Of a stretch of DNA of 64,000 nucleotides, positions 11,301-58,076 are shown one piece after another. How positions within the stretch are numbered: the first letter of the stretch is position 1; every line of letters starts with the position of its first letter. The stretch comes from Spizellomyces punctatus DAOM BR117 (taxonomy: Eukaryota), in NCBI GenBank assembly GCA_000182565.2, contig KQ257453.1; one strand, 5' to 3'. Position numbers and translations under genes: made by a program. The notes below the pieces were generated by a model. It was not told where the DNA came from. It saw only the letters and a list, made by a program, of their open reading frames with translations, and made no database searches.

Positions 11301-11530
11301 TGCAGTCCCAATAGCGCACCTTCTCGTGCCAGACCAGACTTTTTGTTTTGCGCTTGTTGTGTGAGATTGTCGAGGACGCCGCATGTGTGCAGAGTGTAAA
11401 GCCCAATTGATTTTATCACTCCCCCGAGGTCAGCAGCAATAGAGACGCACTCGTCGCTTGTTTCACAGGTATACAGCTGGTTGAGGAGCTCCGGAATGCG
11501 GGATGACGGGATAAAGTCTGCAAAGCCCAT
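8332..11530 (-). CDS. YEF3: Translation elongation factor 3 (ABCF family: HEAT repeats, two ABC domains, chromodomain insert)
   Basis: GRNGAGKST and GPNGAGKST Walker A, LSGGWKMK and LSGGQKVK signatures, two DEPTN motifs, Lys/Arg-rich tail. One intron (GTTGGT...CTAAC...CAG) near the end gives a tiny last exon ending DED* at 8332. Confidence 0.95.
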
Positions 11531-11846
11531 TGTGTTCTTGTTTTGGCCGAGTCGAGCTGCACCAACAACAGTCTAAAAAGAGCCCAACCAATGGAAGGGC
11601 CAACAAACAGGAAAAAGATCCCCAGCAAATGGAGAAAACTAAAAAGCCAAGAACGATGCGATGGGGGGATCCCTTGTTCGTTGGTGTTTTTTTTTTCTTC
11701 CAACCCCTAACTTATCGAAACGCGAGGGAAACCCCAACCACGTTTTTTAAAGTCTCGCCTGCAGCTGAAAAAATGGGTGCTGACTAATCATATTATGTCA
11801 GCCAAAAGCGCAGTTTGTACAATACGATTTACATTTGACTAGCAAC

Positions 11847-24391: not shown

Positions 24392-27064
24392 TCAATCTGG
24401 GCGGTGGCCAGAATCCGACAATAAGGATTGCGACAACAGCCGCAGGGTCTGGAGCCGGTGATACATTGCATCCGGCAATGCTGTTGATTCATTGCCTTTG
24501 TTCTTTAATTGGTGCAACGCTGCTCTAGATTCGCTCGAGNNNNNNNNNNNNNNNNNNNNNNNNNNNNNNNNNNNNNNNNNNNNNNNNNNNNNNNNNNNNN
24601 NNNNNNNNNNNNNNNNNNNNNNNNNNNNNNNNNNNNNNNTATGACGCGATAAGTGGTGGCTCTACCGCCGGGTGCCATGGGCGATGCTCGGGCCGATCTA
24701 TGATGGGCTCCAGTGCACCATAGGCACCGCACCTTCCCGTACGGGCTTTGTTTTGGTGTCTCGGGCCTTGCATTATTTTCAGGACCTGGGCTATTGTTGA
24801 TATATTAGATCAGCTCACATTCGACAAGATCTTCGACTTACCGGTTCTGATATGCTGCTTCCTGATAACTTCAAACTCGGCACGCAGCAGTTTCGCACCT
24901 TCGTCTCCAAGCCGATATGTTCGACGAAGTTCTAATTTGACTTTTAGGTGATCCGGAAAGGCATGAAAATCCACTCCAGCTTACCTCTTTCGTGTTGTAC
25001 CTTCAGCTTTGACAGTTTGTCTCTCAAGGCGCTTACATCTTGTCTACTGTCTTCAATTTCCTTTTCTTTTTGCTCCAAGTTGGTGGAAATTACTCTGGAT
25101 TTCTTGAACTTGGTAGTTAGCGTTGGAGACCGATGTCTGATTGTCGCGACTGCCTACCTCTTGTTCTTCTTTAAGTTCAAATGTTATCTGATTTAGCCGG
25201 GCACACATGTCTGCTTGAGATGTTTCAAGGTCGGCTACTTTCCGTAATACTACAGTGTGTGCCGTTGGTGAGCATGTCTTATACATGTGGCATCCGATAT
25301 ACACTTACATTCTTGCCGCTCCTCTTCAAACACTTTTGCATCTTCATCAACCCGCTTCATGAGGACATCACGCTCCTCAATGAGTTGAGATATCCGGTCG
25401 TGAAGCAACTGTATTTCGGGTTCCGTCTATGCCAACGGTTACACAGCATTAGTTAACGGGGACGTCATACAGGATACTTTGGCACATACTTCTTCTATGA
25501 TTTGCTGTTGCCCTTGTGAGAAATTGGTCACGTCTTGTTTATGTTTATCGTCAATAGGTGCTGGCCTATGCTTTTGCATACCTGTTGGTCTTAGGTGAGT
25601 CGCAAGTGTATTCGAAGTCCTGACCAGTAATCGATTAGATAAATACATACTTCTGACGACCGCTAGCCTGTCAGCAGCGAATTCAATCCGGCTTGACAAC
25701 ATATGCATCTTTCTTTCGGCAGTCTGTACGAATCTGTTCTGCATCCCACAACCGACATGTTCCATCCTGGAAGAAAGTGTAAAGATAAAGAAACAATGGC
25801 AGGTCCATGAGGCACTGACCAATTCTCTACTGTCTCGAGAACATGCTTATGCTCTGCTATTCTGCGTGCATCCACGGCCTGCACTTCAGTTGCGATTCGC
25901 TGTAAGATAGTTAGCGTCTGGTGGTCATTTTGGACTGCAACAGTCGACCTACTTTCCGAGTATCGCGCTCTAGCTCCAGAGAAGCTTCCTTGATTCGGAG
26001 CAATTCAGCGGAAATTTGCAGTTGCTGCTGCAACGCCTCATTTTCTTGGCGCTGTTCACCTAGCTATGAAATGTTAGTCGTAAGGATGAAGGTATGTCCG
26101 TTCTTATTCAGCGACAAGCATTCTACCTTCACTTCCCAAGCGCGCCTATCCTGATCGAATTCTGCCATCTGCAGCTTATTGTGTACAAGAAGCTCGAACA
26201 CTTTTCGTCGCCAGCTGTGTCCTTTGCAAACTTTGTAATCTGCCACATTCCGTATGCATCATTGCAGCTGCGTACCACGTAAGGAGATCTTCCCGAGCGG
26301 TCACCATGGACAAATGTTTCATTTCTTTATCAGGACTTGAGACTTGGCCTTCTCGAATGTCATTTATCCTTTCAAAGGCACTGATCTGAATCTTGAGCAG
26401 GTCCACAGTTTTTGTGAGTTCCTGTATTTGTTTATCTTTGTCCTTCAAGGCCCTCATCAGTTAGCTTGATCAGGAATAAGGTCAATTCCTGTTGTCCCTA
26501 CCTCCAACGGCGCCGCTGGTTGATTGGGATCGACAGCTGCCAATGGACTGGCTGCCATGCCTTGTAGATAGCATTTCAGAAGTCCGTTTTCCTCCCTTAA
26601 CTCCTCCAACTGTTCATTGTACTGGTATGGATAGGAAATATTTGGCGTGGCCTGCTGTGCAATTGTAGAACTCTGGTTTGACAGTCACATTAGTATCACC
26701 TTACCGACTGCAGGAAGGGTAGAGTGAGTTATACCTTTCCGGTCAACGAGAGTAAAGGACTGTGCGAGCAATTGTGCGGACTGGGTTGGAGTATCCTGCT
26801 CGACAAGTGGGGCAATGGTTGGAATTCCGAGCTCACACTGTCCATACCGTATCGTGACAAGCACTTTGATGGTGCGGGTGGATAAAATGTGTGCTGTAGG
26901 GTAGTTTCGCTTGGTGCCTCACTCATAAAGCTTTTTCCACAAGAATTGTTACACTCCACACTTTGACTTGTGTCTGCCTCCGTGATCTCCGCCCCACTTG
27001 AACCTGAAGGAACCTGAAAGGCACTTGTCGGGATTGAGTCTCCGTCAAACTTGGACGTTGGCAT
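24392..27064 (-). CDS. CCHCR1 (HCR)-like coiled-coil protein, multi-exon, interrupted by an assembly gap
   Basis: ELTKTVDLLKIQISAFERINDIREGQ...DLLT|..WRRKVFELLV resembles the CCHCR1 block (LLQVRVQSL...WREKVFALMV, recalled). Coiled-coil exons follow, and an open frame beyond the gap ends ...RLQTLRLLSQSLLSDSGHRPD*. Confidence 0.6.
24540..24639. other. Scaffold gap (100 N)
   Basis: Run of N bases. Confidence 1.
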
Positions 27065-31384: not shown

Positions 31385-31969
31385 TCAGTCAGTTTGGAAG
31401 TCACCTTCCCACGTTTCCACAACGCATCTAACTTCAGTAGGCTTATTGTTTTTGAACTTTTCAACAGAATGGTATCGAGCATTGAACTCGTCAAAGATTT
31501 GTTCTCCCATGGTTAAGGCACATCCGTCCGGTTGAAAGTAGGCGCGAAACCCATAGTCTTTTCCCCTCGGAGGCTGAACAATTTGTCCAGGAGTGCTGGA
31601 CCGGTACAGGTGAATGTGATTCTCATGACGTATTCCAAGAATGCAAACGAAGGCGGCGCGAGTTCCATTGGCAATGTTCGGCAACTCGCCCAACAGCCAT
31701 TTGACGTTCGGTCCTATCTGCATACCTTCAATATCTAAGCTAGTATCGTCTACAAGAACGGGCGCATCAGCTGGAAATTGGGAAGCCTTGTATTGAACGA
31801 TTGTAAAAGGGTCGGAGGACACTGGTTCGCGGATATCTATTGTTGTACTTTTGACTTCCATTGGGGATAGATACCGCTGAAATTCCGCTTTTTTATGGGC
31901 ATTTGATGTGTTCACGAGAACAGTCTTCCCTTTTCCCATAACACTGTGCTCACAAGTTGCGACTGTCAT
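31385..31969 (-). CDS. Intronless Ham1/ITPase-family non-canonical NTP pyrophosphatase, divergent
   Basis: NTSNAHKKAEF, IDIREP, YKAS, VLVDDTSLDI, GPNVKWL, GQIVQPPRG; single 194-aa ORF. Confidence 0.8.
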   Translation of the reverse strand: MTVATCEHSVMGKGKTVLVNTSNAHKKAEFQRYLSPMEVKSTTIDIREPVSSDPFTIVQYKASQFPADAPVLVDDTSLDIEGMQIGPNVKWLLGELPNIANGTRAAFVCILGIRHENHIHLYRSSTPGQIVQPPRGKDYGFRAYFQPDGCALTMGEQIFDEFNARYHSVEKFKNNKPTEVRCVVETWEGDFQTD

Positions 31970-32039
31970 CCTGCGGTTGATGCCTGTTGTCTATGCAAGA
32001 GTTCGTCGGTGGGGAATGGCAAGTTGCAAAGCGTGGCTT

Positions 32040-32222
32040 CCTGAAACAGTCGCGAAGTGGCTTATACATCACGTGAAAACAAAATCGGACTTTCGGACAT
32101 GACTTTCGTCGCGCTGGTCCTGAACGCGAACACTCTCAACCTTTCGAGCCGGGTTGGACGTGACGACGAACCCCCGTCGAGGCCTTCCGTTGCTGGACCA
32201 AATCAAAGGCTTGGGGTTCACC
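32040..32222. promoter_or_regulatory. Divergent promoter between the Ham1-like and Ki-67-like genes, with CGCG-core motifs and an E-box
   Basis: CGCGAA at 32051-32056 and 32125-32130, CGCG at 32110-32113, TCACGTGA at 32069-32076. Confidence 0.4.
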
Positions 32223-35200
32223 ATGGAGTCAAGCCACGCAGAAGATGTCGACTATGGCAGAGTTGTCGCCATCCGAAAAACTGGCGAAGATGCTGGGTAG
32301 GAAGCGCACGCGGAGACATTAATGTTGATTTGCAAAATCGCAACAGTAACTCACTTTCATGGTCTTCAACGACAGATTTATGCGCATCACTCAATCCGAT
32401 TTCACTATCGGAAGGTAAGGACAAAGTTTTCATTATTGCGGCCGTGGCGACTTGCACTGTGTGGGTCCTGACAGTTGTGGCCAAGAAAGAGATTTGAGCT
32501 GCGACATCAAAATTCGCCTCCTCACTGTGAGCAGAGTTCACGCAGTACTACAGGTGGACAAGAAGACTCGCAGAGTATGTTTGCTGGAAAAAAGTCTTCC
32601 ATTTCACGTCCAATAATTGCTCGCGGCCTCACATTACATCCCAGGTGACTGTAACTTGCCGAAGCCCACAGGGTCTTTTGGTGAATAAGGAAACTATAGC
32701 TTTGCAAAGAAAAGTTTTGCTCAAAAATGGGGATGTCATTGACATACAAGGCCGACGATTTCGCTTTGAGAATTCAACTGGTGTCCCATCCACAGGATTT
32801 GCGCATGACTCCCGACAAACAAACAATGCGCTGTCCGGTTCACCCCTTCACATTTTTCCCGCGGAAGAATTGGAATTCCAACGACCATGTGCATCAGTTG
32901 CTACAAAATCTCTTTCTGTGACCAATACCTTGTCGGATGCATCGATATACATTAACGTCAAGACCAATGCTCCAGACCGCTACCGAATCTCCCCAGCTAC
33001 TGGATCCATAGCTCCAGGAGATACTCTCAACATACTGATTTCCTTGCATATACATGAGGGACCTACTGAAAGTGACGTTTCGATGGATAACGTGACGGTT
33101 AAAGGCATCAAGGTGCCGGCGGACTGTGTAGATCTGGGTGGCGAAGATTTGGCAGGAAAGCTACAAGATTTGCTGCAGCGGGCGCAGGAACTGGGGGAAA
33201 GTTCTTCAAAAGCACAATCAGACAGTCTACTGGAGAGGACGTTGAAATGCGTTTATGTTGATCGTGCGACTGATGTGAATGTCGCAGGGACAAGTGGAAC
33301 CCCGTCTGAGGCAAAAGCGCAAGTGGGAAGAAAGGAAACTGCCAATGGGGAGCTAATGGCGTCTAAAAGCATTGCGACTGCTGCTGACGACCCAGCACCA
33401 CGACGGATCGACCGCTCACGTGCCCGCAAAACACTTTCAGCGAGCAGCCTTCCAACTCTCATTAAAACTGGAGCTGCTCGTTCCGTACGCCCTGCAACAA
33501 AATCCACGCTCCAAAATACATCCACATCCACTGATGGGTCTTTTTGGCAGCAAATGGACAAAGTACTAACCGCCACCAATCAGCCAGTCAAGCCGCCTCA
33601 AGCGACGGGCAAGACCAACACTCCAAACTCCCGGCGTCAGGGTGTAGCCGCCGGTGCGAAGAGTGTGCCCGCTAAAGAACAGAGGCGGGGAGCTGCCGGG
33701 GTTACGGCTCCTCGACGCGCCTCAACTTTATTTGGTTACGCGGTGCATCCGTCTTTGAAAGATCTGAGCCTTGCGGACAGTGAGCCCACGCTGAGGAGCA
33801 TAACCAACGCGAAGCCTACTGATCACCCGATCCCTCCCGAAAATAAGTCATGCGATGATAAGCGCAAATCGCCGCCAAGTTCTCCTTCCCACACCGGCGA
33901 CGAACGTGAACCTGCTGATTCAGATACAAGCCTTTCCACAAAAGCAACCACTTCGGACAGCACTCCAAAGCGTCTACCTTCCACCAAGCCGCCCAGCCCT
34001 CTGCCGAAAGCGGTCGATACAGTGGAGCATGCGACGAGTCCGACAGCAAAGGTGTTGACACAATCGCCCACATCTACCGGTGATACACCTCCGAGAAAGA
34101 GTCCAGAAGATGTCCCCGAAGATCAACCGTCAACCTCTCCCTTTGTTCCGATATCGAATCCTCTAATTGTCCTCGAGGGTCAGGCTGCCGAGGAGAACCT
34201 CCAGGACGCTAAGCGGGAAGAGAGCGACAACGTCTCTCTTCTCAACGCAAACCTGTCCCCGGACGAGGTTATTCCCGACGGTACACTTGCGCAGGAGACC
34301 CCCGCTACCGACAGAATCCAGGAGATTGAAGTAGACGACGACGACAAAAATCCATCGTGCTCGCAAGAGACTGATGAGCACGCGAACCAGGCTGACGAGG
34401 GCTCCGCTGCCTTAACTCCTCCGGTAAGCGATCTGCTCACGCCTGGTCGAAGCCTGAGTTCAAAATCGAAAAAGGGCGTTACCTTTGGACCTCCGGTAAG
34501 AACTTTGTCACTTCAAATTCATTTCATTGATACTAATTCTAGTCCTTAAAGCTGTCTCCCGAGGTCTTCGATGAAACTCTTCCGATCAATTCACCCGTAG
34601 TACGGGGCAGGCAAGTGCTGCTCTCAAGGGAAGTCGGAAAGCGGTCCATTCTTAAATCGCAGGAACATTTACGACGGGAAGCGGAAGAGGCGTTGAGAGT
34701 CGCCAGCGAACTCGCCCAAACCAGTGAGTCTGAGCCTGTTCTTCAAGATCCGGGAAAGCATGGAAACACCAGAGAAACTGGTAATGCTGGGGAGGCAGAA
34801 GAGGATAAGAACTCGGATATTGAGAATGGCGATGTGGATACCTTGGCATTCCAATCCATTCCTTCTATTTCAGAAATAGTGGAAAATGATGGTGGAGATG
34901 GGAAAGTGCCGGTCACCTCAGACGCCATTGAGTCGACAAAGCAGAGGGATGGAGAGAATGGAGAGTTTGGCGTTGCTCAAATTGAAACCGAGCCTTCTGC
35001 TGGTGCCGCACACGTCGCCGCGACAGTTTCGGAAAGCAGAAAGAGTAGTAGAAGGAAGAAATCCACTGATAGGATCAAACCTGATGACGTGCAGGAAGGT
35101 AGTGAAACCCTCGCAGTGGAAGCCCAGCCTCCACCATCTAGCCCTGCTGAAAGTGCCGAAGAGCCCTCCGACAATAAGAGACGCGGCCGAAAGCGGGGTT

Positions 35201-38200
35201 CCGCGAAGACCGCGAAGCCAAAGACTGAGCTTAGCGGGACTGAAGGATCCGCGCTGGATATTATCACAGAGCAAGGAGCTCCGTCCATGCCTACTGATGC
35301 CATCGAACTGCCTAAACCGGAGAAGGGTGATCGATTGCCGGCGGTTGTCACCATCACGGAAGACGAGCAGAGCTCCAAAACTGAGATTTCTGTCGCCGAT
35401 GTAACTGATGGAGTTGAGTCTACCACTGAGGACCAGATTGAATTCGAAAAAAGTGGTATACTGGTCACGGACGAGAATATAAGCTCGCGAGCCGAGACCG
35501 AGACTCCCGCAACAGAAGATCCGACAGCTGAATCAGCAGCTGATGTGCAACCAGGTCCATTGACCATTGAAGGAACCCCTAAAGTCAAAAGACGAGGCCG
35601 ACCTCCAAAAGTTACCAAGAGCACGCAAATCGACGTGACTGAGACCCCTGCAACAAAAGATGCGACGATTGAATCACCAAAACCTGTGGATACACCAGCC
35701 GTTGGTGAAAAAGGTCGGGGCAGTAAAAGAAGCCACCCTCCAAAGGTTGTCAACGATACGGAGGAGGATACGAGTGCAGGGGCCGTGCCAGACGATGTCA
35801 TAGTTAAAACTGCGGACATCATAGGTACAGCAGGTCTCGGTGACAACGCTCAGGTCAGAAAGCGAGGCCGGCCACCAAAGGTGACCAGGAATACGACGGA
35901 GGACATAAACTCAGCGTCGAAGGATACGATCGCTGAAGTCCGCATCGAGGCGACGGATGCATCAACCAATGATGAGAAGACTCCAGTTAGAAGGAGAGGT
36001 CGACCTCCCAAGGTTGCCAAAAACACGACAGAGGACATGAATTCACCGGCTGAGGCACCTGCAATTAAAGCTGCGACGGCTGAAGCTCCTGAATCCTTGA
36101 GTAAGTCGACTCTCAATGACAAGACTCAGGTCAGAAAAAGAGGTCGACCTCGAAAGGCTGCCACGGATATGAAGGAGGACACTTGCACCGGAGCTGAAAC
36201 TCGGACCGAAGATGTGACTGATCCATCAGTAAATTCGCCGCAACCACATGCGGAAACTGCTGATGAGCAGCGTGAAGTTGAAGGAAGAGGTCGGACGGAT
36301 AGCCCGCAGGCGACAACACTTGGCCCTCAAGCTGCTCAAGAAGAGACGGCCGCAGCAGAAAGTTCAACCACCGATTCTGTGCTCTCAGCTTCCGTAGAAA
36401 CCCGTAGCGAGCCACCTCAACCAAGAAAGAGTAGAAGAGGCGCTGCGAGAGCGAGAAAGGAGGAGACCACTGATGTGCACTCAGTGGATGCGGTATTAAA
36501 GGATCAGGCACGCTCCACTGAAGTGGTCGTTGAGCAGGAAGGAGATGATGAAACGAAGGGTGAGGCAAAGGGCAATGCCAACATCGAAACGGAACAGAAT
36601 ATGAGCGTGGAGACTGCGAACGCGATGGTACAGGAACTGGAAGTTAAAGATGCTACTGATCAAGTGATTGAACAGCCTAAAGTTGGAAGACGTGGAAGAA
36701 GGAGAAGCATGAACAAAGGAAAGCAGGGTAGCAGTCATACCGACACTGGAACTACTCGAGTTCCAGTAACAGATGAACAGCCTACCGTCCCTACCTCGAC
36801 AGAGACGGTGGCTGAACACGCGGAGGACACAGATAGGAAAGCTGCCAACGCCAAGAGCAAGGAACTCGCAAAAGAGGCGAACCTTGAACCAGTTGTTGAG
36901 ATACCTTCCGTCGAAGACTCTGCTGAGCAACCCGTTGATGCACAAGGTATCGGGAAACGACGTCGAGGCCGGGCCGCCGCAAAGGCCCAGAAGAACAGAG
37001 AGACGAGCAATGACGCAGATCTTGAACACGCATCGATCGAATGCGAAGATCACGAAACCACACCAGCAGACCCAACTGATTCGCAACCGGCACCCAAAGC
37101 TAAGTCGCGGGGAAGGGCGGTTGCAAAAAAGTCCGAAGATGTGAAAAAGGAAGAGGCCAGAAAAGAAGACGTAGAAGCTCTTTCGTTAGAGTCGGGAGAG
37201 TCAGCCCCGCCGTCCACTACGGCAGAAGTTGTTCAGCAAGACACTGAAGTTGAAGGAAAGGTGCGCGGTATGCGCAATGCCAAAGCTAGGCAACCTAAAC
37301 AACAAGAAGCGGTGGAAGCAGAGGCCGCGGACGGGTTGCAGCAAAGCACTGTGGAGTCTGTACCATCCGGCTCCACCACTGAAGATCATCAGCCGGTGGC
37401 TGTTAGACGGAAGAGGGGAAGAGCTGCTTCGAAGGCGAAAACCCTAATGGAAGAGAGCGCAGCAGTTGAAAACTCTACACCCGTCGATACTCATGCAACG
37501 GATGTGACAATCGAGCCAGTGCCGCCGTCCATTGTTCCAGAGGCCGAAGAGAAACCATCCGATGCTAGTGTAAAGGTCCGGACTAGAGCGGGTGGAAAAA
37601 GAACCAAGACCAAGGAAGGCAAGAGCGAGGACAAGACAATCCCAAATGTCGATGATGCTCCAGAATTTGTAGAAGCACAAGCTCCATCTACCCCATCAGA
37701 GATGACCAAAAAGCTTAGAGGTAGACCCGCGGCCAAAACCAAAGCCGCTGTGGAAGACTTCGGCGAGAATAATCCAAGTGAGGACGTTGCAGCGGAAGAG
37801 CCGATGCCAATTCCGACACCTGCCGATGTGGAACCTGAGCGTGCAAGAAGGGGCAGAAGAAGGGCTGCTGCTACAGAGAACAAGGCTGCAAGCGAGCAGG
37901 AGAAAGACCTCAAAGAGAATCCATCAACTCAGGCTGACACTGAAACTCAGCCTGAAGTTGAGGTTAAGGGTAAAGGCAGGGCGGTTACCAGAGCCAGAAA
38001 GGCAATGGAGGAAAGAACAGATGAAAATGCGCTGGCTGAGGCCGAGCCTATAGACCAACCGTCAATAGAACAAACCTCGCGAAAAGGCGGTTTACGACGG
38101 GCAGCTGCAAAGACCAAGACGGACAACAAACAAGTAGCAGAAGCTGATACAAAAGAGGCACCTGTGGATGACGTCCCAGATGGGAAGCGAACGACCAAGG

Positions 38201-38388
38201 GCGTCACCTCGAGAGCAAAGCAGCAAACGAGAGCATCAACCAAGGAAAATCATGACCCAAAAGCTGACACTGAAAGCAACGCGGACAGCAAACCCATATC
38301 AATTCCGACAGAATCTTTTTATGGGGCTGCTGAAGAAAAGAAAGTAACCAGAGCTACTGCGGCAAGACGGAAGAAAGCCGCGAAGTAA
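32223..38388 (+). CDS. Ki-67-like protein (~1961 aa): FHA + MSP + Ki-67/RepoMan PP1-binding motif + long disordered AT-hook/charge-block tail; exons 32223-32296, 32376-32414, 32490-32574, 32645-34495, 34552-38388
   Basis: All four introns are GT-AG and keep frame (5886 nt in total). FHA YGRVVAIRKTGEDAG...FTIGRDLSCDIKIRLLTVSRVHA...LKNGDVIDIQGRRFRFE; MSP INVKTNAPDRYRISPATGSIAPG; spliced KKGVTFGPP|LSPEVFDETLPINSPVVRG. Confidence 0.85.
35575..36180 (+). repeat. Five degenerate ~45-aa coding repeats, four carrying an RGRP AT-hook core
   Basis: KVKRRGRPPKVTKST, SKRSHPPKVVNDTEED, QVRKRGRPPKVTRNTTED, PVRRRGRPPKVAKNTTED, QVRKRGRPRKAATDMKED at roughly 130-145 nt spacing. Confidence 0.8.
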
Positions 38389-38803
38389 TTATTTTTTGTA
38401 AACTGCCAAAGTGGGAGCCTTCCTTTGTAGTAGGCACTGGCCATTTTTGGTATCTCTTCCTAAACTACCGACATGTGATGTATATAACATAGTTTTTCTT
38501 TTGTCGAGGTGCTTTTGCATGTGATCAGGACAAATTGATCGTTGGATTGGAATTATGCCTCGGTGACCTGCTATATAGTAATCGGAATAGCTAGATTAGA
38601 CTTTGCCGTGACGCAGTCAAAGTCCCATAGCTGACGAGATACGAACGCTGCATATTCGCAGCAGATCTGCCCACAGTTGCGCTTCCGGTGTGATAGCCTC
38701 TGCAAGCTAGTCAATCGGCGAGCTGCGGCCGAAAGCTGGGGTAGGACGTTGAATGCTTGTTGCGGTCCGAAAGAACCCGGAGAGAGCCGGCACGCAGGAC
38801 TCG

Positions 38804-39253
38804 TCAAATTTCCAACGCCATGATGTCTTCATGAGCCTTTTTCACAAGGGCATCCACCATGGTCACGTCCAACACGCCCTTCTTCACCATCATCTCCAAA
38901 GCTTCCCTATCCCGCTTGAGGGCCACCTGTTGAACACTCTTTATCGTCCCACCCAAGTGAACCACACAAAAGATACATGGTCTGTTCCTAATCTTTGTGA
39001 TAAACGATAAGGCCGCCCACAGCATTTGATACGACTCTCTTGCGCAGCGTATAATGCCCGTTTGCGTGTGAGGCGAGTAGTATTTTACTGTGAAGGACGC
39101 GATCCCTATCCCATAATCTCCAAAGTTGAGTTCTAAGCTGTCTTTGAGAGAATTGTTAATCGTCCCCCCGTTGATCGCAGTGTCCACCGACGGCGGCGTC
39201 GAAGGATCAAAGTGGAGATTGAAGAGGAGGTAGCGGTTCTTTAGGCGGACCAT
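38804..39253 (-). CDS. POP5: RNase P/MRP protein subunit Pop5, intronless
   Basis: MVRLKNRYLLF, NFGDYG, VKYYSPHTQTGIIRCARE, LWAALSFIT, VVHLGGTIKS. Confidence 0.92.
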   Translation of the reverse strand: MVRLKNRYLLFNLHFDPSTPPSVDTAINGGTINNSLKDSLELNFGDYGIGIASFTVKYYSPHTQTGIIRCARESYQMLWAALSFITKIRNRPCIFCVVHLGGTIKSVQQVALKRDREALEMMVKKGVLDVTMVDALVKKAHEDIMALEI

Positions 39254-39624
39254 CCCGAAGATTTCCAGATCTTCCTTCCTTGGCAAAGTCGGCCGTTCGC
39301 AAGTCGCTGCCTGCGAATCGATGAGATCATGTGATTCCTGCTCGGAATGGTTAAATGACTCACCCAAGCAAGCGTCCCGCCAGGTTCCGACTCCCGCAAA
39401 CAGCCAACGCAACGTTTTCCCCATTTCATTTTCGTCATTCCAATTTGGCACGGCCTCAATCTACGACTGGAATTTGGGTTACAAAGCTACATCTTGTCAC
39501 CTTTCCTTCTCTGCGGGAATTTGGGTGAATTGGTTTGGCCTTGTTTCTGGCAAATGGACATTTAAAGACTTGAAGCCTCATTACCAAAAACGAAGACTGT
39601 TATTCCTGTAAACACCAAGGAAAA

Positions 39625-44578: not shown

Positions 44579-44678
44579 NNNNNNNNNNNNNNNNNNNNNN
44601 NNNNNNNNNNNNNNNNNNNNNNNNNNNNNNNNNNNNNNNNNNNNNNNNNNNNNNNNNNNNNNNNNNNNNNNNNNNNNN
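44579..44678. other. Scaffold gap (100 N)
   Basis: Run of N bases. Confidence 1.
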
Positions 44679-53472: not shown

Positions 53473-56400
53473 CTAATCATGAAAGTCCTTTCCAGCTCTT
53501 GTCGCCTTCACAACTCCCGCCCGAATAACCCAATCGCCAAACTTTTCCCCGTGAATCCTGTCGCGGGCATATCGTGCCAAAAGCGGCCTCAATTCTTTAA
53601 TAATTTCTTCCTCGCCAATGCTCTCCCGGTATAGTTTGCTCAATCGGTCTCCGACGAAACCGCCGCCCAAGTACATGTTGTATGCCCCAGGCGCTTTACC
53701 CACGAACCCAATTTCAGCAATTGTGGGACGAGCGCACCCATTGGGACATCCTGTCATACGGATGGTGATGGCGTCATCACGGAGACCGTGTTCGTCCAAG
53801 ATCTCCTCAATCAATGTCATAAGGCTTGGAAGGTATCGTTCGGATTCGGCCATGGCAAGACCACAGGTAGGCAAAGCAACGCATGCCATAGAGTTGAGTC
53901 GAAGTCCAGAGTGGTTGGTGATGAGGAGTTTGTGAGTGCGGAGGAAAGAGTCAATTTCGGCGCGATGAGCAGTAGGGATCTTGGCAATCAAGAGATGCTG
54001 GTTGGCTGTGAGACGGATTTCACCAATGTTCAATTTGTCCAAGAGCTTAGCCAAATCTTTGAGTGCAGTTTTCATGCGGTGCTCGGGTGTGTCCTTGACT
54101 CGACCGCTCTGGATAAACATTGTGTATGCCCAGGATCCATTAGATTCTTGGATCCATCCAAACCGATCACCATTCGAGTCAAATTTGAAAGGACGAGGAG
54201 CGGGAAGCTTCCATCCCAAACGCTTTTCTACCTCTCCACGGAACCATTCGATGCTACGGTCATCGATCGTGTACTTCAATCGGGCGTGCTTGCGGTTGGT
54301 ACGGTCTCCATAATCACGCTGGACCGTCACGACCTTTTCACCAACTTCGATCGCCTGCTCGGGTGTGCAAAACCCGAGTACATCCGCAAGTCGTGGGTAA
54401 GTCTTCTTGTTTCCGTGCGTCATACCCATGCCACCTCCAACTGTCACATTGTATCCGACAATCTTGCCGTTCTCAATGATTGCAATGTATCCAAGGTCAT
54501 TGGCAAAGATGTCTACGTCATTGTGGGGAGGCACGGCGATGGCAGTCTTGAATTTACGGGGAAGGAACGTTTTGCCGTAGATCGGTTCGTGCTCCTCCTG
54601 TGTGGACACAACCAATTTCTTGTCAAGCCAGATCTCGTGGTATGCGCCCGAGTGAGGGAGCATGTGGGTACTCCAGTCCCTGGCGAGTTTCAAGACCGCC
54701 TCGTTGACTTCGGAAGAGTGCTCGTTGGGACTGCAAAGAACGTTTCGATTGACATCTCCACAGGCGGCGATAGTGTCTGTACAGGCCAAAATTTGTCAAT
54801 CATAATTCATCCTGCTGAGAAGCCGAAGATTACAGACAACTTACCCATCAAAGCTTGGTTCATCTCCCTGATGGATGGCTTCAAAACCCTTTTAACAATT
54901 CCATGAAATTGGAAAGTCTGACGGGTAGTAATCTTGATCGTACCGTTCGCGAACCGATCCGCGATATCATCAACAGCCAACCACTGCCGAGGGGTGATGG
55001 TACCTCCGGGGATACGGCAGCGCACCATGAACGAGAAGGCAGGCTCGAATCCTTGGCGAGCGCGCTCATCCCGAATGTCACGGTCATCTTGCTGGTAAAT
55101 ACCGTGGAACTTGATAAGCTTGGTGTCGAGCTCAACAAGTGCTCCGGTGGAGCTGTTGACCAGTCCTTCAGCAATTGTACCACGGAGGAAGTTACTGGAT
55201 TCTTTGATGGCATCATCCGACGGAAGGGCTGGCTCTAGGCTGACATCCATTTCGTCCACATCAAGAGCCTTCCAAAGCAAGGGGCGCCAAAGGTTGAGAC
55301 CAGTGTGGTATCCGTCAGGATCTTGATCATCACCAATACCGAGAGGAGTCAGGCGAGGAGCACCCAGTAGCTCAAGCTTGGCATCAAGATCTTTACCAGC
55401 CTTAGCAAAGTAATGCTTGTCTTCGGGCAATGGCCAATAGTGTCGATCACCAAGTGCGAGGACAGCAAACCTGGTCTTGCTAAGATCAAGCTCTGTGACC
55501 GAGCTGAGCGCCTTCCATGTCTCCTTACAGTTTCCAGGAAACTCTCCTTGTCCAGCCGTAGACACGACAAATACAACGTTGGGTTCGCCAGGAAGGTCCT
55601 CCACGCTGTAAGAATCAGCTGCCATGACTCTCGGCCGCAATCCGCGCTGCTTCGCTTCAGCACCAACCCGCTTGGCAACTGCCTCTGCATTTCCACCATC
55701 CGATCCGTATAGGACTAGTAAGGGCTGTGTGTTCAAGCTGCTGAGGAGCTCAGCGTATGATGCCTTGATCTTGTTCTCAATAGCAGCCTTGCGCTCCGAT
55801 TCCGCAGAACCAGTGAATTGCTCAGAGATTTCAGGTTTACTCTTGAGCACGTACGCCAAATGGTTCTCGCGCTCCAAGAATTCAAAGATCTCCTTTTTCA
55901 CCTTTTCAGAATCCAAAGCAAAAGGATCCTGACCCTTCTCCTCCAAGCTAGGGTTCCATCGATACAACGGCCAGTAACCGCTGTCCACAGCCTGTTTGGT
56001 TTCCTTGAGCATACCAAGAGGAATACTAACTCCCTTGCTAGCCTTGTTAATGCGCGGGGCATATGCAAGTACGACGGCGGGTCCAGGGTATGCGTCCGCT
56101 TCCATGAATGCCCGAAGGACTTGAGCATAGGACGCATTTACTGCAACCGAGGCCACATACACTCCACCGTACTGCATGGCATACAGACCTATATCCTTTT
56201 TGCGCTTGTCCACTTGAGCGGGCGCAACCTTCTCAGAATAGGGTTGCGTGTCCAGCACGATCATATTGATATTTTCTTTGGACGAGATGACATGGTGCAC
56301 ACCGCTGTTGCCGACATCGTAGGAAAGTTGGTCACCACCAATGAGCCAGCGCGAAGGTTTGGCAAAGAATACTCTGTCTTCATAAAGCTGGCCAAGTGCA

Positions 56401-58076
56401 GGGTGACGAGATTTTTCCGTCTCCAAAAGATGGACGGCGTCATTTCCGTATTTGTGCGACTTTTCGGCATCATCCCTGTGTTGCAACCAGGAGGCCAGCA
56501 CATTGCGCAATTCTGCACTCAAAGGGACATCGGCAGAGGCATCTTTGACCAGGTTTGCAAGACCATTCGCGAATCGGTTGCGACGCTGCACAAGTGCAAG
56601 GTGCATTCCGAAACCAAACTCTGCATTGGACTCGGCTGCATTCTTGCCCCAAACCGAGCTTGCTGCTGCGACGTTTGCGATGGAGACACGCTCACCAAAG
56701 AGTTGATGCAGCATCTTAACGTATGGTCCCTCGATTACCGAATCCAAGTCCACATGAGGCACAGTGCCATTTACACTGCTCGTTACAGGACCATGGCCAT
56801 TCGCCTGTGGAGCTCCGATGACAAAGGTACCTTGCTCATCTGCGGCTGTCCGTTCCAGCGCCGACTTTACAATTTCGCCGGTAAACCCTTCCGTACCCAA
56901 ATGTACTCTTCCCTCCCGCACCGCAGGGGCTTCTCCTTGCCATTTTCCAGAGTGGAATGACGCTGCAACGTCCAAGAACAAAGGTCCCCACGCTGTTGTC
57001 AAGGTATGAGCTGTTTCGAGCACTGAAACACGTCGAACAGTTCGTGGTAAAGCAGCAAGGAAGTGTTCCTCGGACCACGGCCGGTAGACACGGACGCGAA
57101 CAACTCCAACTTTGCGACCACTGACGACGAGATTATGCACGGTTTCCTCCACTGTTGACGATGCTGTACCAAGCACAACAATGACATCGGTTGCGTCATG
57201 AGCACCAGTGTACTCGAATAATTTGTAAGCGCGCGTTCCAAAAGCTGGCTTCAGTTGTTGGATAACATCAACAAATGACTGTGTTATCTGAGTGTAGTCA
57301 ATAGAAGGTTGTGAGCTTGGCAGGAAGAGGGAGTCTTTGACCTATTACCAAAACACCAGTCGTTTGTTAGCACCAAGACAGTCCAATTTGCTGGGAATAA
57401 ACTGAAGCTTACCTCAGCATTCTTTTGGTGATACTTGTTGACCAAATCTTTCTGTTCAGCAAACAAGTTTGAGAGCTCCGAGTACTGAATCGTGTGAATC
57501 TGTTCGTAGCTTCGGCTATCTGCGTAAAAGTGCACGACAGGGATGTGGTTGCGAAGGGCCACAATATGGGAGATGAGGCCCACATCGTGAGCCTGCTGTG
57601 CGCCGTGAGATGCAATCAAGAGAGCGCCGGTTTGCCGGATCGCAAAGATGTCCGATGTGTCACCATTGTGCGCAAGAGGAGTGTGAAAGACAAAGGGAGC
57701 CTTGTCTCCGATGAGCTTGTACAGTGTGGGGATAGTGTTGATGAGTTCGCTTGATGGAATGTAAACGGTTGCAAGAGACTTGTTCAGGACAGCTTGGTGT
57801 GTGGCAGCATGAAAATCTGCTCTAGCGTTTTCAATGGTGACGACGGATCCTGTGTTTCCATATGCATTTCTTGTTCCTTGTTTCGCCCACTCGCTCACGA
57901 GATCTCCCACTGGAGAAGGTTCAACCACGAAATTTGTGTCTGCCAAATCATATCTACAAGGAATCAGACAATGAATCAGACAATCAGTACATGCCCTTTT
58001 TAATCACAAGATGATAAAATCAGCACACATACCCGACATAGGACAATGCCGTCGGGATATTAAAGGATTGTGCCAT
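53473..58076 (-). CDS. MET5: Assimilatory sulfite reductase beta (hemoprotein) subunit, with PFOR-like and flavodoxin domains
   Basis: [32 protein letters not shown] (PFOR-like); [10 protein letters not shown] (flavodoxin); [38 protein letters not shown] and [10 protein letters not shown] (siroheme/4Fe-4S ligands). Confidence 0.96.

What the first reader, a model, noticed from the sequence alone, without database searches (positions are those of the whole stretch)
32223..38388. Ki-67-like chromosome-periphery / PP1-scaffold protein in an apparent zoosporic fungus
Seen: the spliced gene has a Ki-67-type FHA at the very N-terminus (GRVVAIRKTG...IGRDLSCDIKIRLLTVSRVHA...LKNGDVIDIQGRRFRFE), then a PP1-binding motif, then about 1250 aa of low-complexity repetitive tail. 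Known (from memory): human Ki-67 begins RRLVTIKRSG...FGRGIECDIRIQLPVVSKQHC...LKHGDVITIIDRSFRYE, has the same FHA / PP1 motif / repeat-tail order, and is usually described as an animal protein absent from yeasts. Inference: this may be a fungal Ki-67 orthologue, which would place the Ki-67-PP1 mitotic-exit system in the common ancestor of animals and fungi. The ORF track hides it because the FHA is split over four exons.
Basis: partly seen in the sequence, partly recalled or inferred. Interest (0 to 1): 0.92.

Follow-up and report, generated by a model that had tools for sequence, protein, structure and literature searches.

The report
Chytrid Ki-67/bridgin-family PP1 scaffold gene
This is a real five-exon gene of the chytrid fungus Spizellomyces punctatus whose protein belongs to the same family as the human proliferation marker Ki-67, but fungal members of that family are already in print, so it is a useful new member, not a discovery.

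Summary
Five GT-AG exons (32223-38388, +) give a 1961-aa protein identical to NCBI SPPG_02950 of Spizellomyces punctatus.

- **FHA domain:** it is N-terminal, and its best solved match by sequence and by fold is the human Ki-67 FHA.
- **PP1-binding domain:** a Ki-67/RepoMan-type domain lies at residues 675-711, above Pfam's cut-off. It is split by intron 4.
- **Tail:** about 1250 aa, acidic, with basic blocks.

In a tree of FHA domains the protein falls on the side that holds vertebrate Ki-67 and all 16 proteins carrying the PP1 motif. Family membership is well supported. Strict orthology and location in the cell are not shown.

The idea is not new. Bridgin, a Cryptococcus kinetochore protein, was published in 2021 with Ki-67 named as its animal homologue. 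A 2026 preprint lists Ki-67-like proteins in three other fungi.

My reading is a chromatin-bound scaffold that recruits PP1 under mitotic-kinase control. Chromosome periphery versus kinetochore stays open. Interest is moderate.

The parts
31991..32222 (.). Intergenic stretch shared with the divergent Ham1-like gene; presumed promoter and 5' UTR
   Evidence: The Ham1p_like ORF at 31385-31990 lies on the minus strand. The first ATG of the open frame is at 32223. The stretch holds 3 CGCG cores against 0.66 expected, which is weak.
32223..32296 (+). Exon 1 (residues 1-24 plus 2 nt): first strand of the FHA
   Evidence: Donor tgg|GTAGGAAG. The spliced product equals P0001.
32376..32414 (+). Exon 2 (residues 25-38)
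   Evidence: Acceptor ...CGACAG|, donor aag|GTAAGGAC. The alignment to the human Ki-67 FHA runs across the junction.
32490..32574 (+). Exon 3 (residues 38-66): holds the family's C-D-I-[KR]-I segment after the GR loop, and the S-x-x-H motif
   Evidence: G37, R38, S52, H55 and N80 are invariant or nearly so in alignment A1 or A2.
32645..34495 (+). Exon 4 (residues 67-683): end of the FHA, the MSP domain, the linker and the RVxF half of the PP1 domain
34552..38388 (+). Exon 5 (residues 684-1961 plus stop): the KiR-SLiM half of the PP1 domain and the whole tail
32223..32821 (+). Region coding the FHA domain (residues 1-125, introns included)
   Evidence: Pfam FHA 43.3 bits. PDB 2AFF and 1R21, E 2e-8. 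AlphaFold model with mean pLDDT 89.1. Top two Foldseek hits are the human Ki-67 FHA, rmsd 1.4-1.6 A.
32846..33127 (+). MSP (major sperm protein / VAP-type) domain, residues 134-227
   Evidence: Pfam Motile_Sperm 43.1 bits against 25.9. Best solved matches are MOSPD2 and VAPB, E about 1e-8. Only P0001 and P0002 of 151 proteins match it below E 0.8.
34469..34635 (+). Ki-67/RepoMan-type PP1-binding domain, residues 675-711, interrupted by intron 4 (34496-34551)
   Evidence: Pfam PP1_bind 36.8 bits against 27. RepoMan peptide 5IOH_B, E 1.3e-5. 13 of 20 residues identical to RepoMan. 9 of 14 defined KiR-SLiM positions met.
34648..35562 (+). Acidic, presumably disordered stretch (residues 716-1020; residues 721-1020 have pI 4.37)
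   Evidence: 74% identity to the S. 'palustris' orthologue, the least conserved part.
35587..36168 (+). Four canonical AT-hooks (RGRP cores near residues 1029, 1119, 1163 and 1211)
   Evidence: Pfam AT_hook 25 bits against 17.4, in 4 stretches.
36169..38385 (+). Alternating acidic and basic blocks with 7 degenerate RGR[A/R/P] motifs; the last 111 aa are basic (pI 9.84)
   Evidence: RGR blocks are 95% identical between the two Spizellomyces species; the rest of the tail is 80%.
38389..38507 (+). 3' UTR up to a poly(A) site
   Evidence: RNA run X8 has depth 15.1 (first mate on +) at 38188-38408. Seven reads carry an A-run after 38507, agreement 0.97.

Best explanation
SPPG_02950 is the Spizellomyces member of the Ki-67/bridgin family. 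It is a long, mostly disordered nuclear scaffold that sits on chromatin and brings protein phosphatase 1 (PP1) to it in mitosis.

**Shown:**
- One spliced gene encodes the following parts in order: a Ki-67-type FHA, an MSP domain, a linker, an RVxF/PhiPhi/KiR-SLiM PP1-binding domain, an acidic stretch, and AT-hooks followed by basic blocks.

**Inferred from the family and from the human structures:**
- The AT-hooks and RGR blocks hold the protein on DNA.
- The FHA, which keeps the phosphothreonine-binding residues G37, R38, S52, H55 and N80, docks a phosphorylated partner.
- Residues 676-702 bind PP1 the way Ki-67 and RepoMan do.
- That binding is probably blocked in early mitosis by phosphorylation of T679 (the x of RVxF), S685-P and S697-P, and released at anaphase, when PP1 dephosphorylates chromatin substrates.

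**Not settled:**
- Whether the protein coats whole chromosomes, as Ki-67 does, or concentrates at kinetochores, as bridgin does.
- What the MSP domain binds.
For: **Gene model.** The spliced product is identical to the NCBI protein. PP1_bind rises from 24.1 bits on exon 5 alone to 36.8 bits on the spliced protein. The FHA model is confident across all three junctions (mean pLDDT 89.1).

**FHA type.**
- The top PDB sequence hit is human Ki-67 at 35.6 bits; CHFR follows at 22.7.
- The top two Foldseek hits are the Ki-67 FHA.
- In a tree of 144 FHA domains, a branch with SH-aLRT 99 sets apart 65 rows. These hold the query and all 16 motif-bearing proteins, including P0105, which is a true Ki-67 (173.9 bits to the human FHA).
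- A careful tree of 84 rows gives that split 97/85 support and finds it in 96% of bootstrap trees.

**PP1 domain.**
- There is only one RVxF-like site in the 1961 aa.
- 13 of 20 residues are identical to human RepoMan and 12 of 20 to Ki-67.
- The PhiPhi pair is E-V, as in RepoMan.
- Phosphorylation at these positions weakens PP1 binding in the human proteins (PMC5005033, passages read).

**DNA binding.** AT_hook scores above its cut-off. The RGR blocks are the best-kept part of the tail. Relatives carry other DNA-binding ends: SAP domains in P0014 and P0110.

**Expression.** A polyadenylated 3' end lies at about 38507.

**Family precedent.** PP1 co-purified with bridgin.
Against: - There is no localisation, binding or phenotype data for this protein.
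- It is acidic overall (pI 5.27, net charge -53), whereas mammalian Ki-67 is highly basic.
- No Ki-67 repeat family appeared in the Pfam scan at E <= 0.1.
- S/T-P sites are sparse: 34, about one per 58 aa, and only 4 are full CDK sites.
- 5 of 14 defined KiR-SLiM positions differ.
- The residue at -2 of T679 is G. By my recall that makes it a weaker Aurora B site.
- The position of the query inside the Ki-67-type clade is unresolved.
- The clade split was found and then re-tested on the same hit list. That list holds none of the other named eukaryotic FHA families.
- Splice junctions were not seen in reads.
Confidence: 0.75

Rival explanations
1. It works like bridgin. It would be a kinetochore linker recruited by the outer kinetochore through the FHA and the acidic region, and tied to centromeric DNA by its basic parts, not a coat over whole chromosomes. 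This concerns location and is compatible with family membership.
For: Bridgin is the only fungal member studied. It has an N-terminal FHA, a PP1 docking site, an acidic unstructured domain with repeats (pI 4.65) and a basic DNA-binding end, and PP1 came down with it (PMC7794384, passages read). The chytrid protein has the same charge layout: residues 721-1020 at pI 4.37 and the last 111 aa at pI 9.84. Three relatives (P0007, P0008, P0150) also have an acidic middle and a basic end.
Against: The last 300 aa reach only pI 7.0, against 11.2 for bridgin's basic domain. AT-hooks spread over 900 aa suit general chromatin binding. The PP1 site is the full Ki-67/RepoMan type, whereas bridgin's is called unconventional.
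Confidence: 0.3
2. The likeness is domain shuffling, not descent. An ordinary FHA and a PP1 motif would have come together independently in chytrids.
For: FHA domains are common and short motifs can arise anew. The tail shows no alignable similarity to Ki-67 (mean column identity 18% in A1).
Against: The same FHA subtype and the same roughly 30-residue PP1 domain, in the same order, occur in 16 proteins on one side of a well-supported branch. The PP1 segment shares 13 of 20 residues with human RepoMan. By the authors' Swiss-Prot search, the KiR-SLiM was found only in Ki-67 and RepoMan proteins.
Confidence: 0.05
3. The gene model fuses two genes: an FHA-MSP gene ending near 34549 and a separate AT-hook gene.
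For: Read without intron 4, the frame stops at 34549. No read joint was seen.
Against: The PP1 domain is complete only across the junction, contiguous over Pfam profile positions 2-38, and gains 12.7 bits when spliced. The splice sites are canonical GT-AG. S. 'palustris' has the same 1955-aa architecture. Read depth over the intron was nil, so the lack of joints says nothing.
Confidence: 0.03
4. The contig is animal contamination.
For: None found.
Against: The protein is recorded on a 1,741,622-bp contig under S. punctatus, and a second Spizellomyces species has it at 82-83% identity. Neighbouring genes include an EF3-type elongation factor, typical of fungi by my recall, plus Ham1, Pop5 and sulfite reductase. 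The short introns of 56-79 nt fit a fungal gene.
Confidence: 0.01

Closest known systems
Human Ki-67 (MKI67)
   Same: Both have an N-terminal FHA of the same subtype: 33-34% identity, rmsd 1.4-1.6 A. Both have the RVxF/PhiPhi/KiR-SLiM PP1 domain downstream, a long repeat-bearing tail coded in one exon (for Ki-67), and a DNA-binding capacity.
   Different: The chytrid protein has an MSP domain and AT-hooks, and no Ki-67 repeat match. It is acidic (pI 5.27), where Ki-67 is basic. No LR domain could be tested. It is 1961 aa against 3256.
Bridgin (Bgi1) of Cryptococcus neoformans (PMC7794384)
   Same: Both are fungal. Both have an N-terminal FHA, a PP1 site, an acidic disordered middle with repeats, and basic DNA-binding parts. 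Its authors name Ki-67 as the metazoan homologue.
   Different: Bridgin's PP1 site lies right after the FHA and is called unconventional. Its basic domain is one 290-aa block of pI 11.2. No MSP or AT-hook is described. Its kinetochore role is shown by experiment; nothing is shown for the chytrid protein. The sequences were not compared here.
RepoMan (CDCA2)
   Same: The PP1 segment is closest to RepoMan's: E 1.3e-5 against 0.042 for the Ki-67 peptide. The first 8 residues of exon 5 are identical to it, the RVxF x residue is T, and the PhiPhi pair is E-V.
   Different: The only region RepoMan shares with Ki-67 is the roughly 40-residue PP1 domain, so it has no Ki-67-type FHA. One review holds that it derives from a duplication of Ki-67.
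Non-vertebrate Ki-67-like proteins of the 2026 preprint (10.64898/2026.06.18.733134)
   Same: The chytrid protein meets the same criteria: an N-terminal Ki-67-type FHA, a PP1 motif, a large disordered charged protein, repeats and S/T-P sites. Three fungi are included (Malassezia, Mycoemilia, Paramicrosporidium). The Drosophila member is acidic too.
   Different: The text has no chytrid, no MSP and no AT-hook (0 occurrences each). It scores the PP1 site by a short regular expression, not by the full KiR-SLiM. It does not mention bridgin. Its Table 1 and supplements were not visible.
VAP / MOSPD2 MSP domains
   Same: The fold family is the same (Pfam 43.1 bits). The K-T-x-A-P-x-x-Y core is kept.
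   Different: There is no membrane anchor (highest 19-residue hydropathy 1.01). The positions aligned with VAPB K87 and M89 are N215 and T217 (the numbering and the role of those residues in FFAT binding are recalled). Canonical FFAT binding is therefore doubtful.

Membership tests
Ki-67 family | N-terminal FHA of the Ki-67 subtype | tested here: met
   Best PDB hit by sequence (35.6 bits, against 22.7 for CHFR) and by fold. It falls on the same side of a 99 / 97-85 branch as true Ki-67. No CDD or InterPro Ki-67-FHA model was on hand.
Ki-67 family | PP1-binding domain (RVxF, PhiPhi, KiR-SLiM) downstream of the FHA | tested here: met
   Pfam PP1_bind 36.8 bits against 27. K-G-V-T-F, an E-V PhiPhi pair, and 9 of 14 KiR-SLiM positions (motif definition from PMC5005033).
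Ki-67 family | Ki-67 (K167/chmadrin) repeats | tested here: not met
   No such family among the 6 Pfam hits at E <= 0.1. No DNA tandem repeat. The repeated unit here is an AT-hook or RGR block. That Pfam holds a Ki-67 repeat model is my recall.
Ki-67 family | Large, mostly disordered, highly charged protein with S/T-P sites | tested here: inconclusive
   31% of residues are charged and there are 34 S/T-P sites. Disorder was not computed. Outside residues 1-245 and 675-711 the only Pfam families found were AT-hooks and a weak sub-threshold DUF6187 match.
Ki-67 family | Highly basic isoelectric point | tested here: not met
   pI 5.27, net charge -53. The Drosophila homologue of the preprint is also acidic.
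Ki-67 family | C-terminal LR domain that binds DNA and HP1 | not testable with these tools
   No model of it was available. The last 111 aa are basic (pI 9.84) and AT-hooks are present.
Ki-67 family | Location at the perichromosomal layer and nucleolus; NIFK binding | not testable with these tools
   This needs imaging and binding assays.
Bridgin family | N-terminal FHA, then an acidic unstructured region with repeats, then a basic C-terminus | tested here: inconclusive
   The FHA is met. The acidic region is met (pI 4.37-5.06). The basic end is short: pI 9.84 over 111 aa but 7.0 over 300 aa.
Bridgin family | Sequence relatedness to C. neoformans Bgi1; kinetochore location | not tested
   The Bgi1 sequence was not among the session's proteins by name. 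The supplements listing bridgin homologues are closed.
RepoMan (CDCA2) | PP1_bind domain in a protein without an FHA | tested here: not met
   PP1_bind is present, but so is an N-terminal FHA. The architecture is Ki-67-like, not RepoMan-like.
VAP/MOSPD (FFAT-binding MSP proteins) | MSP fold | tested here: met
   Pfam 43.1 bits against 25.9. MOSPD2 and VAPB at E about 1e-8.
VAP/MOSPD (FFAT-binding MSP proteins) | Basic and hydrophobic pair needed for FFAT binding (VAPB K87 and M89, recalled) and a C-terminal membrane anchor | tested here: not met
   The aligned residues are N215 and T217. No hydrophobic segment.

The most novel reading that the evidence does not exclude
The chytrid protein may keep the ancestral opisthokont layout: a Ki-67-type FHA, a full KiR-SLiM PP1 domain, an acidic disordered region and a DNA-binding end. 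Animal Ki-67 and RepoMan and fungal bridgin would all descend from that layout. In Spizellomyces the added MSP domain would make it a direct tether between PP1-loaded anaphase chromatin and a motif-bearing partner on the ER or nuclear envelope. That would couple chromatin dephosphorylation to resealing of the envelope, which in this fungus is thought to be fenestrated in mitosis (PMC7213984).
Probability: 0.1. Interest if true: 0.75.

Novelty: new member of a known kind. Interest (0 to 1): 0.4.

Why it matters
Two groups have reached the same family from opposite ends. Bridgin is described as a fungal kinetochore linker. Ki-67 is described as an animal chromosome coat and PP1 scaffold. The 2026 preprint does not mention bridgin.

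The Spizellomyces protein combines features of both. It has the full human-type PP1 domain and the bridgin-like acidic layout. It also sits in a chytrid that can be transformed and imaged live, and that shows signs of envelope fenestration in mitosis.

It is therefore a practical place to ask what the ancestral job of the family was, and whether control of PP1 binding by mitotic kinases predates the split of animals and fungi. The MSP domain and the AT-hooks add to a pattern seen in relatives (SAP domains in P0014 and P0110): the family seems to swap its chromatin-binding and partner-binding modules.

Tried and rejected
- **RNA evidence for splicing.** No RNA holder was listed by the look-up of sequencing runs. 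The one raw RNA run laid (X8; 321 reads laid, about 6% of the run read) is 3'-biased. Depth is 0-0.21 over the introns and no joints appear, so splicing is untested. X2 and X3 contigs are colinear with the genome, introns included, so they behave as DNA.
- **Names and organisms of relatives.** A word-based search with FHA residues 1-125 found only the 2 Spizellomyces proteins. A search with alignment A1 found 4 proteins, adding one named catshark Ki-67-like protein and one unnamed JGI FHA protein. The organisms of P0003-P0151 therefore stay unknown.
- **Own genome.** None is held. No reciprocal search and no count of other FHA or PP1_bind genes was possible.
- **ESM Atlas.** It returned only generic FHA clusters (score 0.94) for residues 1-125, and nothing of use (score 0.75) for residues 1-720.
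- **Metagenome scan** with the FHA-end plus MSP exon piece: 199 pattern matches, none confirmed by tblastn. This is no evidence on how far the FHA-MSP fusion extends.
- **MSP fold** from a single sequence: mean pLDDT 37.1, unusable and not searched.
- **DNA tandem repeats** in exon 5: none.
- **E2F or MCB promoter motifs:** 0 E2F sites, 1 MCB core against 0.28 expected, 3 CGCG against 0.66 expected. Too weak to use.
- **FFAT-like cores** within the protein: none by a loose pattern.
- **Complex prediction:** not used, because no PP1 or NIFK sequence of this organism was available.
- **Literature searches:**
  - 'SPPG_02950': 0 papers.
  - 'Ki-67' plus 'chytrid': 4 papers, none on this subject judging by title and abstract.
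  - The six-term Ki-67/bridgin/chytrid search: nothing beyond the bridgin paper among the 25 listed.
  - The Nature 2024 mitosis paper PMC11153136: no mention of Ki-67.
Full report
**What is there**

The window is eukaryotic. Reading 32223-38388 on the + strand, I built five exons: 32223-32296, 32376-32414, 32490-32574, 32645-34495 and 34552-38388. The four introns are 79, 75, 70 and 56 nt, all GT..AG. The CDS is 5886 nt with no internal stop and gives 1961 aa.

A database search with the exon-4 peptide returned a 1961-aa NCBI protein, [quoted passage not shown]. It is recorded on a 1,741,622-bp contig. The same search returned a 1955-aa orthologue in Spizellomyces sp. 'palustris'. My spliced translation is identical to the NCBI protein.

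**Domains**

Pfam on the spliced protein:

| Family | Residues | Bits | Cut-off |
|---|---|---|---|
| FHA | 35-100 | 43.3 | 20.7 |
| Motile_Sperm (MSP) | 134-227 | 43.1 | 25.9 |
| PP1_bind | 675-711 | 36.8 | 27 |

- The sister-species protein has the same three domains.
Exon 5 alone scores 24.1 bits, below the cut-off. That is good homology evidence that exons 4 and 5 belong to one mRNA.
- A 211-aa piece of the tail passes Pfam AT_hook (25 bits against 17.4, 4 stretches). The whole-protein scan did not list AT_hook.

The tail, residues 721-1961:
- It has pI 5.06 and alternating acidic and basic blocks.
- It holds four RGRP AT-hooks near residues 1029, 1119, 1163 and 1211, and seven degenerate RGR motifs further on.
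- There is no tandem repeat at DNA level.
- Only one RVxF-like site exists in the whole protein, at residue 676.
- There is no hydrophobic segment.

**Is the FHA the Ki-67 type?**

1. *Solved structures, by sequence.* The best hits for the whole protein are the human Ki-67 FHA entries 2AFF and 1R21 (E 2.2e-8, 35.6 bits). They align over residues 13-120 with no break at any exon junction. The next FHA is CHFR (E 1.7e-4, 22.7 bits). All others are at E 0.1 or worse.
2. *Fold.* An AlphaFold model of residues 1-125, built with a 24-row alignment, has mean pLDDT 89.1, and 94-98 over residues 11-110. Its top two Foldseek matches in the PDB are the same Ki-67 entries (rmsd 1.4-1.6 A, 33-34% identity). 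Bacterial GarA/OdhI-type FHAs follow at rmsd 2.3-7.5 A. The 2026 preprint warns that structure alone separates FHA families poorly, so I give this little weight on its own.
3. *Full HMMER search.* Residues 1-125 searched against 1.84 billion representatives gave 810 proteins at E <= 1e-3. The best 150 were listed.
In all but two the FHA sits at the N-terminus with the PP1 motif downstream. In P0006, which has two FHAs, the motif lies ahead of the best-scoring FHA (residue 1023). In P0018 the FHA starts at residue 74.
   - I scanned 11 of the 14 motif-bearing relatives with Pfam. Ten pass the PP1_bind cut-off, and P0073 has 24.0 bits. P0080 and P0105 were not scanned. P0152 carries PF15276 in the precomputed list and is named a Ki-67-like protein of a catshark.
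   - P0105 is a true Ki-67 (173.9 bits to the human FHA).
4. *Trees.*
   - In a tree of 144 FHA segments, a branch with SH-aLRT 99 separates 65 rows from 79. Nine of the 153 proteins were left out because their matched segment was too short. The 65 hold the query, all 16 motif-bearing proteins and all 4 other long proteins with an N-terminal FHA. The 79 hold none of them.
   - A careful tree of 84 rows supports the split at 97/85 and finds it in 96% of bootstrap trees. It used 62 of the 65 inside rows, with three long branches dropped, and the 22 of 79 outside rows with the shortest branches.
   - Limits: the split was defined and re-tested on one hit list. The outside rows are unnamed and are not the other eukaryotic FHA families. 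Inside the clade the query's place is unresolved.

**The PP1 domain**

Kumar et al. 2016 (PMC5005033, passages read) define the Ki-67/RepoMan PP1 domain as three elements:
- an RVxF motif;
- a PhiPhi pair (EL in Ki-67, EV in RepoMan);
- the KiR-SLiM, FDxxLP(P/A)N(T/S)PL(R/K)(R/K)Gx(T/S)P.

Their Swiss-Prot search found the KiR-SLiM only in Ki-67 and RepoMan proteins. They show that phosphorylation weakens PP1 binding. Aurora B acts on the RVxF x residue (S507 in Ki-67, T394 in RepoMan). Cdk1 acts on three sites inside the RepoMan motif.

The chytrid protein compares as follows:
- It has K676-G-V-T-F680, an E687-V688 pair, and 9 of the 14 defined KiR-SLiM positions.
- The start of exon 5 shares 13 of 20 residues with human RepoMan, including the first eight, and 12 of 20 with the Ki-67 peptide.
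- Across the 17 motifs found, S/T is at the x position in 13, an S-P follows the RVxF in 11, and an [ST]P lies inside the KiR-SLiM in all 17.
- In the chytrid these sites are T679, S685 and S697.
- Between the two Spizellomyces species this segment is 98% identical, against 83% overall.

That PP1 binds here, and that mitotic kinases gate the binding, is inference from the human work.

**The MSP domain**

- Its best solved relatives are the MSP domains of MOSPD2 and VAPB (E about 1e-8).
- In the alignment with VAPB, the positions I recall as K87 and M89 are N215 and T217. Mutating that pair abolishes FFAT binding; the numbering and the role are recalled, not from a call.
- There is no membrane anchor and no FFAT-like core in the protein itself.
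- None of the other 149 proteins then held matches this MSP at E below 0.8. Only the best 150 of 810 FHA hits were visible, so other chytrid orthologues may simply not be in view. A metagenome scan found nothing.
- What the MSP binds is unknown.

**Surroundings and origin**

- Upstream on the minus strand is a Ham1-type gene (31385-31990).
- Downstream, converging, is a Pop5/Rpp14 gene (38804-39460).
- Elsewhere in the window are an EF3-type elongation factor with a chromo domain (8363-11572) and sulfite reductase pieces.
- With the 1.74-Mb contig and the sister-species orthologue, animal contamination is excluded.
- RNA run X8 shows depth at the 3' end, and seven reads carry an A-run after 38507. 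The gene is therefore expressed and polyadenylated about 119 nt past the stop.

**What is already known**

- **Sridhar et al. 2021** (PMC7794384, passages read) described bridgin (Bgi1) of Cryptococcus neoformans.
  - It has an FHA at residues 1-124, a putative PP1 docking site, an acidic unstructured domain (pI 4.65) with 13 repeats, and a basic DNA-binding end (pI 11.2).
  - It is a kinetochore protein, and PP1 came down with it.
  - The authors state that Ki-67 is the bridgin homologue in metazoa, and that bridgin-like proteins outside fungi suggest an ancient origin.
  - Their homologue lists are in supplements I could not open, and those may include chytrids.
- **Haider et al. 2026** (bioRxiv 10.64898/2026.06.18.733134; outline, sections 6, 7, 8, 13, part 1 of section 9, and passages read).
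  - They report Ki-67-like proteins across non-vertebrates, including Malassezia, Mycoemilia and Paramicrosporidium, and outside opisthokonts.
  - Their text has no chytrid, MSP, AT-hook or bridgin.
- **Remnant et al. 2021** (PMC8354752, passages read) still describe Ki-67 as found in vertebrates, and hold that RepoMan derives from a Ki-67 duplication.
- No paper in the library names SPPG_02950.
- None of the 4 papers holding both 'Ki-67' and 'chytrid' is on this subject, judging by title and abstract.

**How it most likely works**

*Shown:* the architecture, its conservation between two species, and its place in the family.

*Inferred:*
- The AT-hooks and RGR blocks hold it on DNA. They are the best-conserved part of the tail, at 95% identity against 80% for the rest.
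- The FHA, with G37, R38, S52, H55 and N80 kept, docks a phosphothreonine partner.
- Residues 676-702 recruit PP1 once the mitotic phosphates are gone.

Relatives end in other DNA-binding modules: SAP domains in P0014 and P0110, and basic ends in P0007, P0008 and P0150. This fits a family plan of "FHA, PP1 site, disordered spacer, chromatin anchor" with exchangeable anchors.

Nothing here says whether the chytrid protein coats chromosomes or marks kinetochores. The acidic charge, the lack of Ki-67 repeats and the fungal precedent keep the bridgin-like reading alive at about 0.3.

**Verdict**

It is not shown for strict orthology or for location in the cell, and it is not new as an evolutionary claim. 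I file this as a new member of a known kind.

It has three notable features: the most human-like PP1 domain I am aware of in a fungal member, an MSP domain not seen in its nearest relatives, and an AT-hook array. It is of moderate interest because S. punctatus is transformable and can be imaged through its synchronous, apparently fenestrated mitoses (PMC7213984, passages read).

Noticed in passing
window 8363-11572 (-): A long ORF of an EF3-type translation elongation factor: EF3 N-terminal HEAT repeats, two ABC domains and a chromo domain. By my recall EF3 is typical of fungi, so it supports the fungal origin of the contig.
   Followed up: partly
window 31385-31990 (-) and 38804-39460 (-): The flanking genes are a Ham1-type (ITPase family) gene, divergent from the Ki-67-like gene across about 230 bp, and a Pop5/Rpp14 RNase P subunit gene converging on its 3' end. 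Reads with the first mate on the minus strand pile up at 38409-38600 (depth 40.1), probably the Pop5 gene's 3' end.
   Followed up: partly
window 53473-57341 (-): Two adjacent open frames carry sulfite/nitrite reductase domains: flavodoxin with PFOR_II and NIR_SIR_ferr, then the NIR_SIR 4Fe-4S domain. They are probably exons of one sulfite reductase gene.
   Followed up: no
window 24540-24639 and 44579-44678: Two runs of exactly 100 N, which are assembly gaps in the scaffold.
   Followed up: no
P0014 (1746 aa) and P0110 (1156 aa), relatives: These proteins have a Ki-67-type N-terminal FHA but no PP1_bind match. They end in SAP DNA-binding domains (2 and 5 stretches). This suggests the family swaps its chromatin anchor. 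Their organisms are unknown.
   Followed up: partly
P0140 (1430 aa), relative: It carries two PP1_bind motifs in tandem, at about residues 376 and 434 (Pfam 87.2 bits, 2 stretches). P0075 may also have two.
   Followed up: no
P0006 (2148 aa), relative: It has two Ki-67-type FHA domains, the better-scoring one near residue 1023, and a PP1_bind at residue 415. It may be a tandem duplication or a fused gene model of a vertebrate-like Ki-67.
   Followed up: no
window 34552-38385 (+): The whole disordered tail of 1278 aa lies in one exon. The Ki-67 review notes the same for the repeat region of vertebrate Ki-67 genes.
   Followed up: no
window 31951-32222: The stretch upstream of the start codon has 3 CGCG cores (0.66 expected) and one ACGCG (0.28 expected), but no E2F consensus. 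This is too weak to call a cell-cycle promoter.
   Followed up: partly
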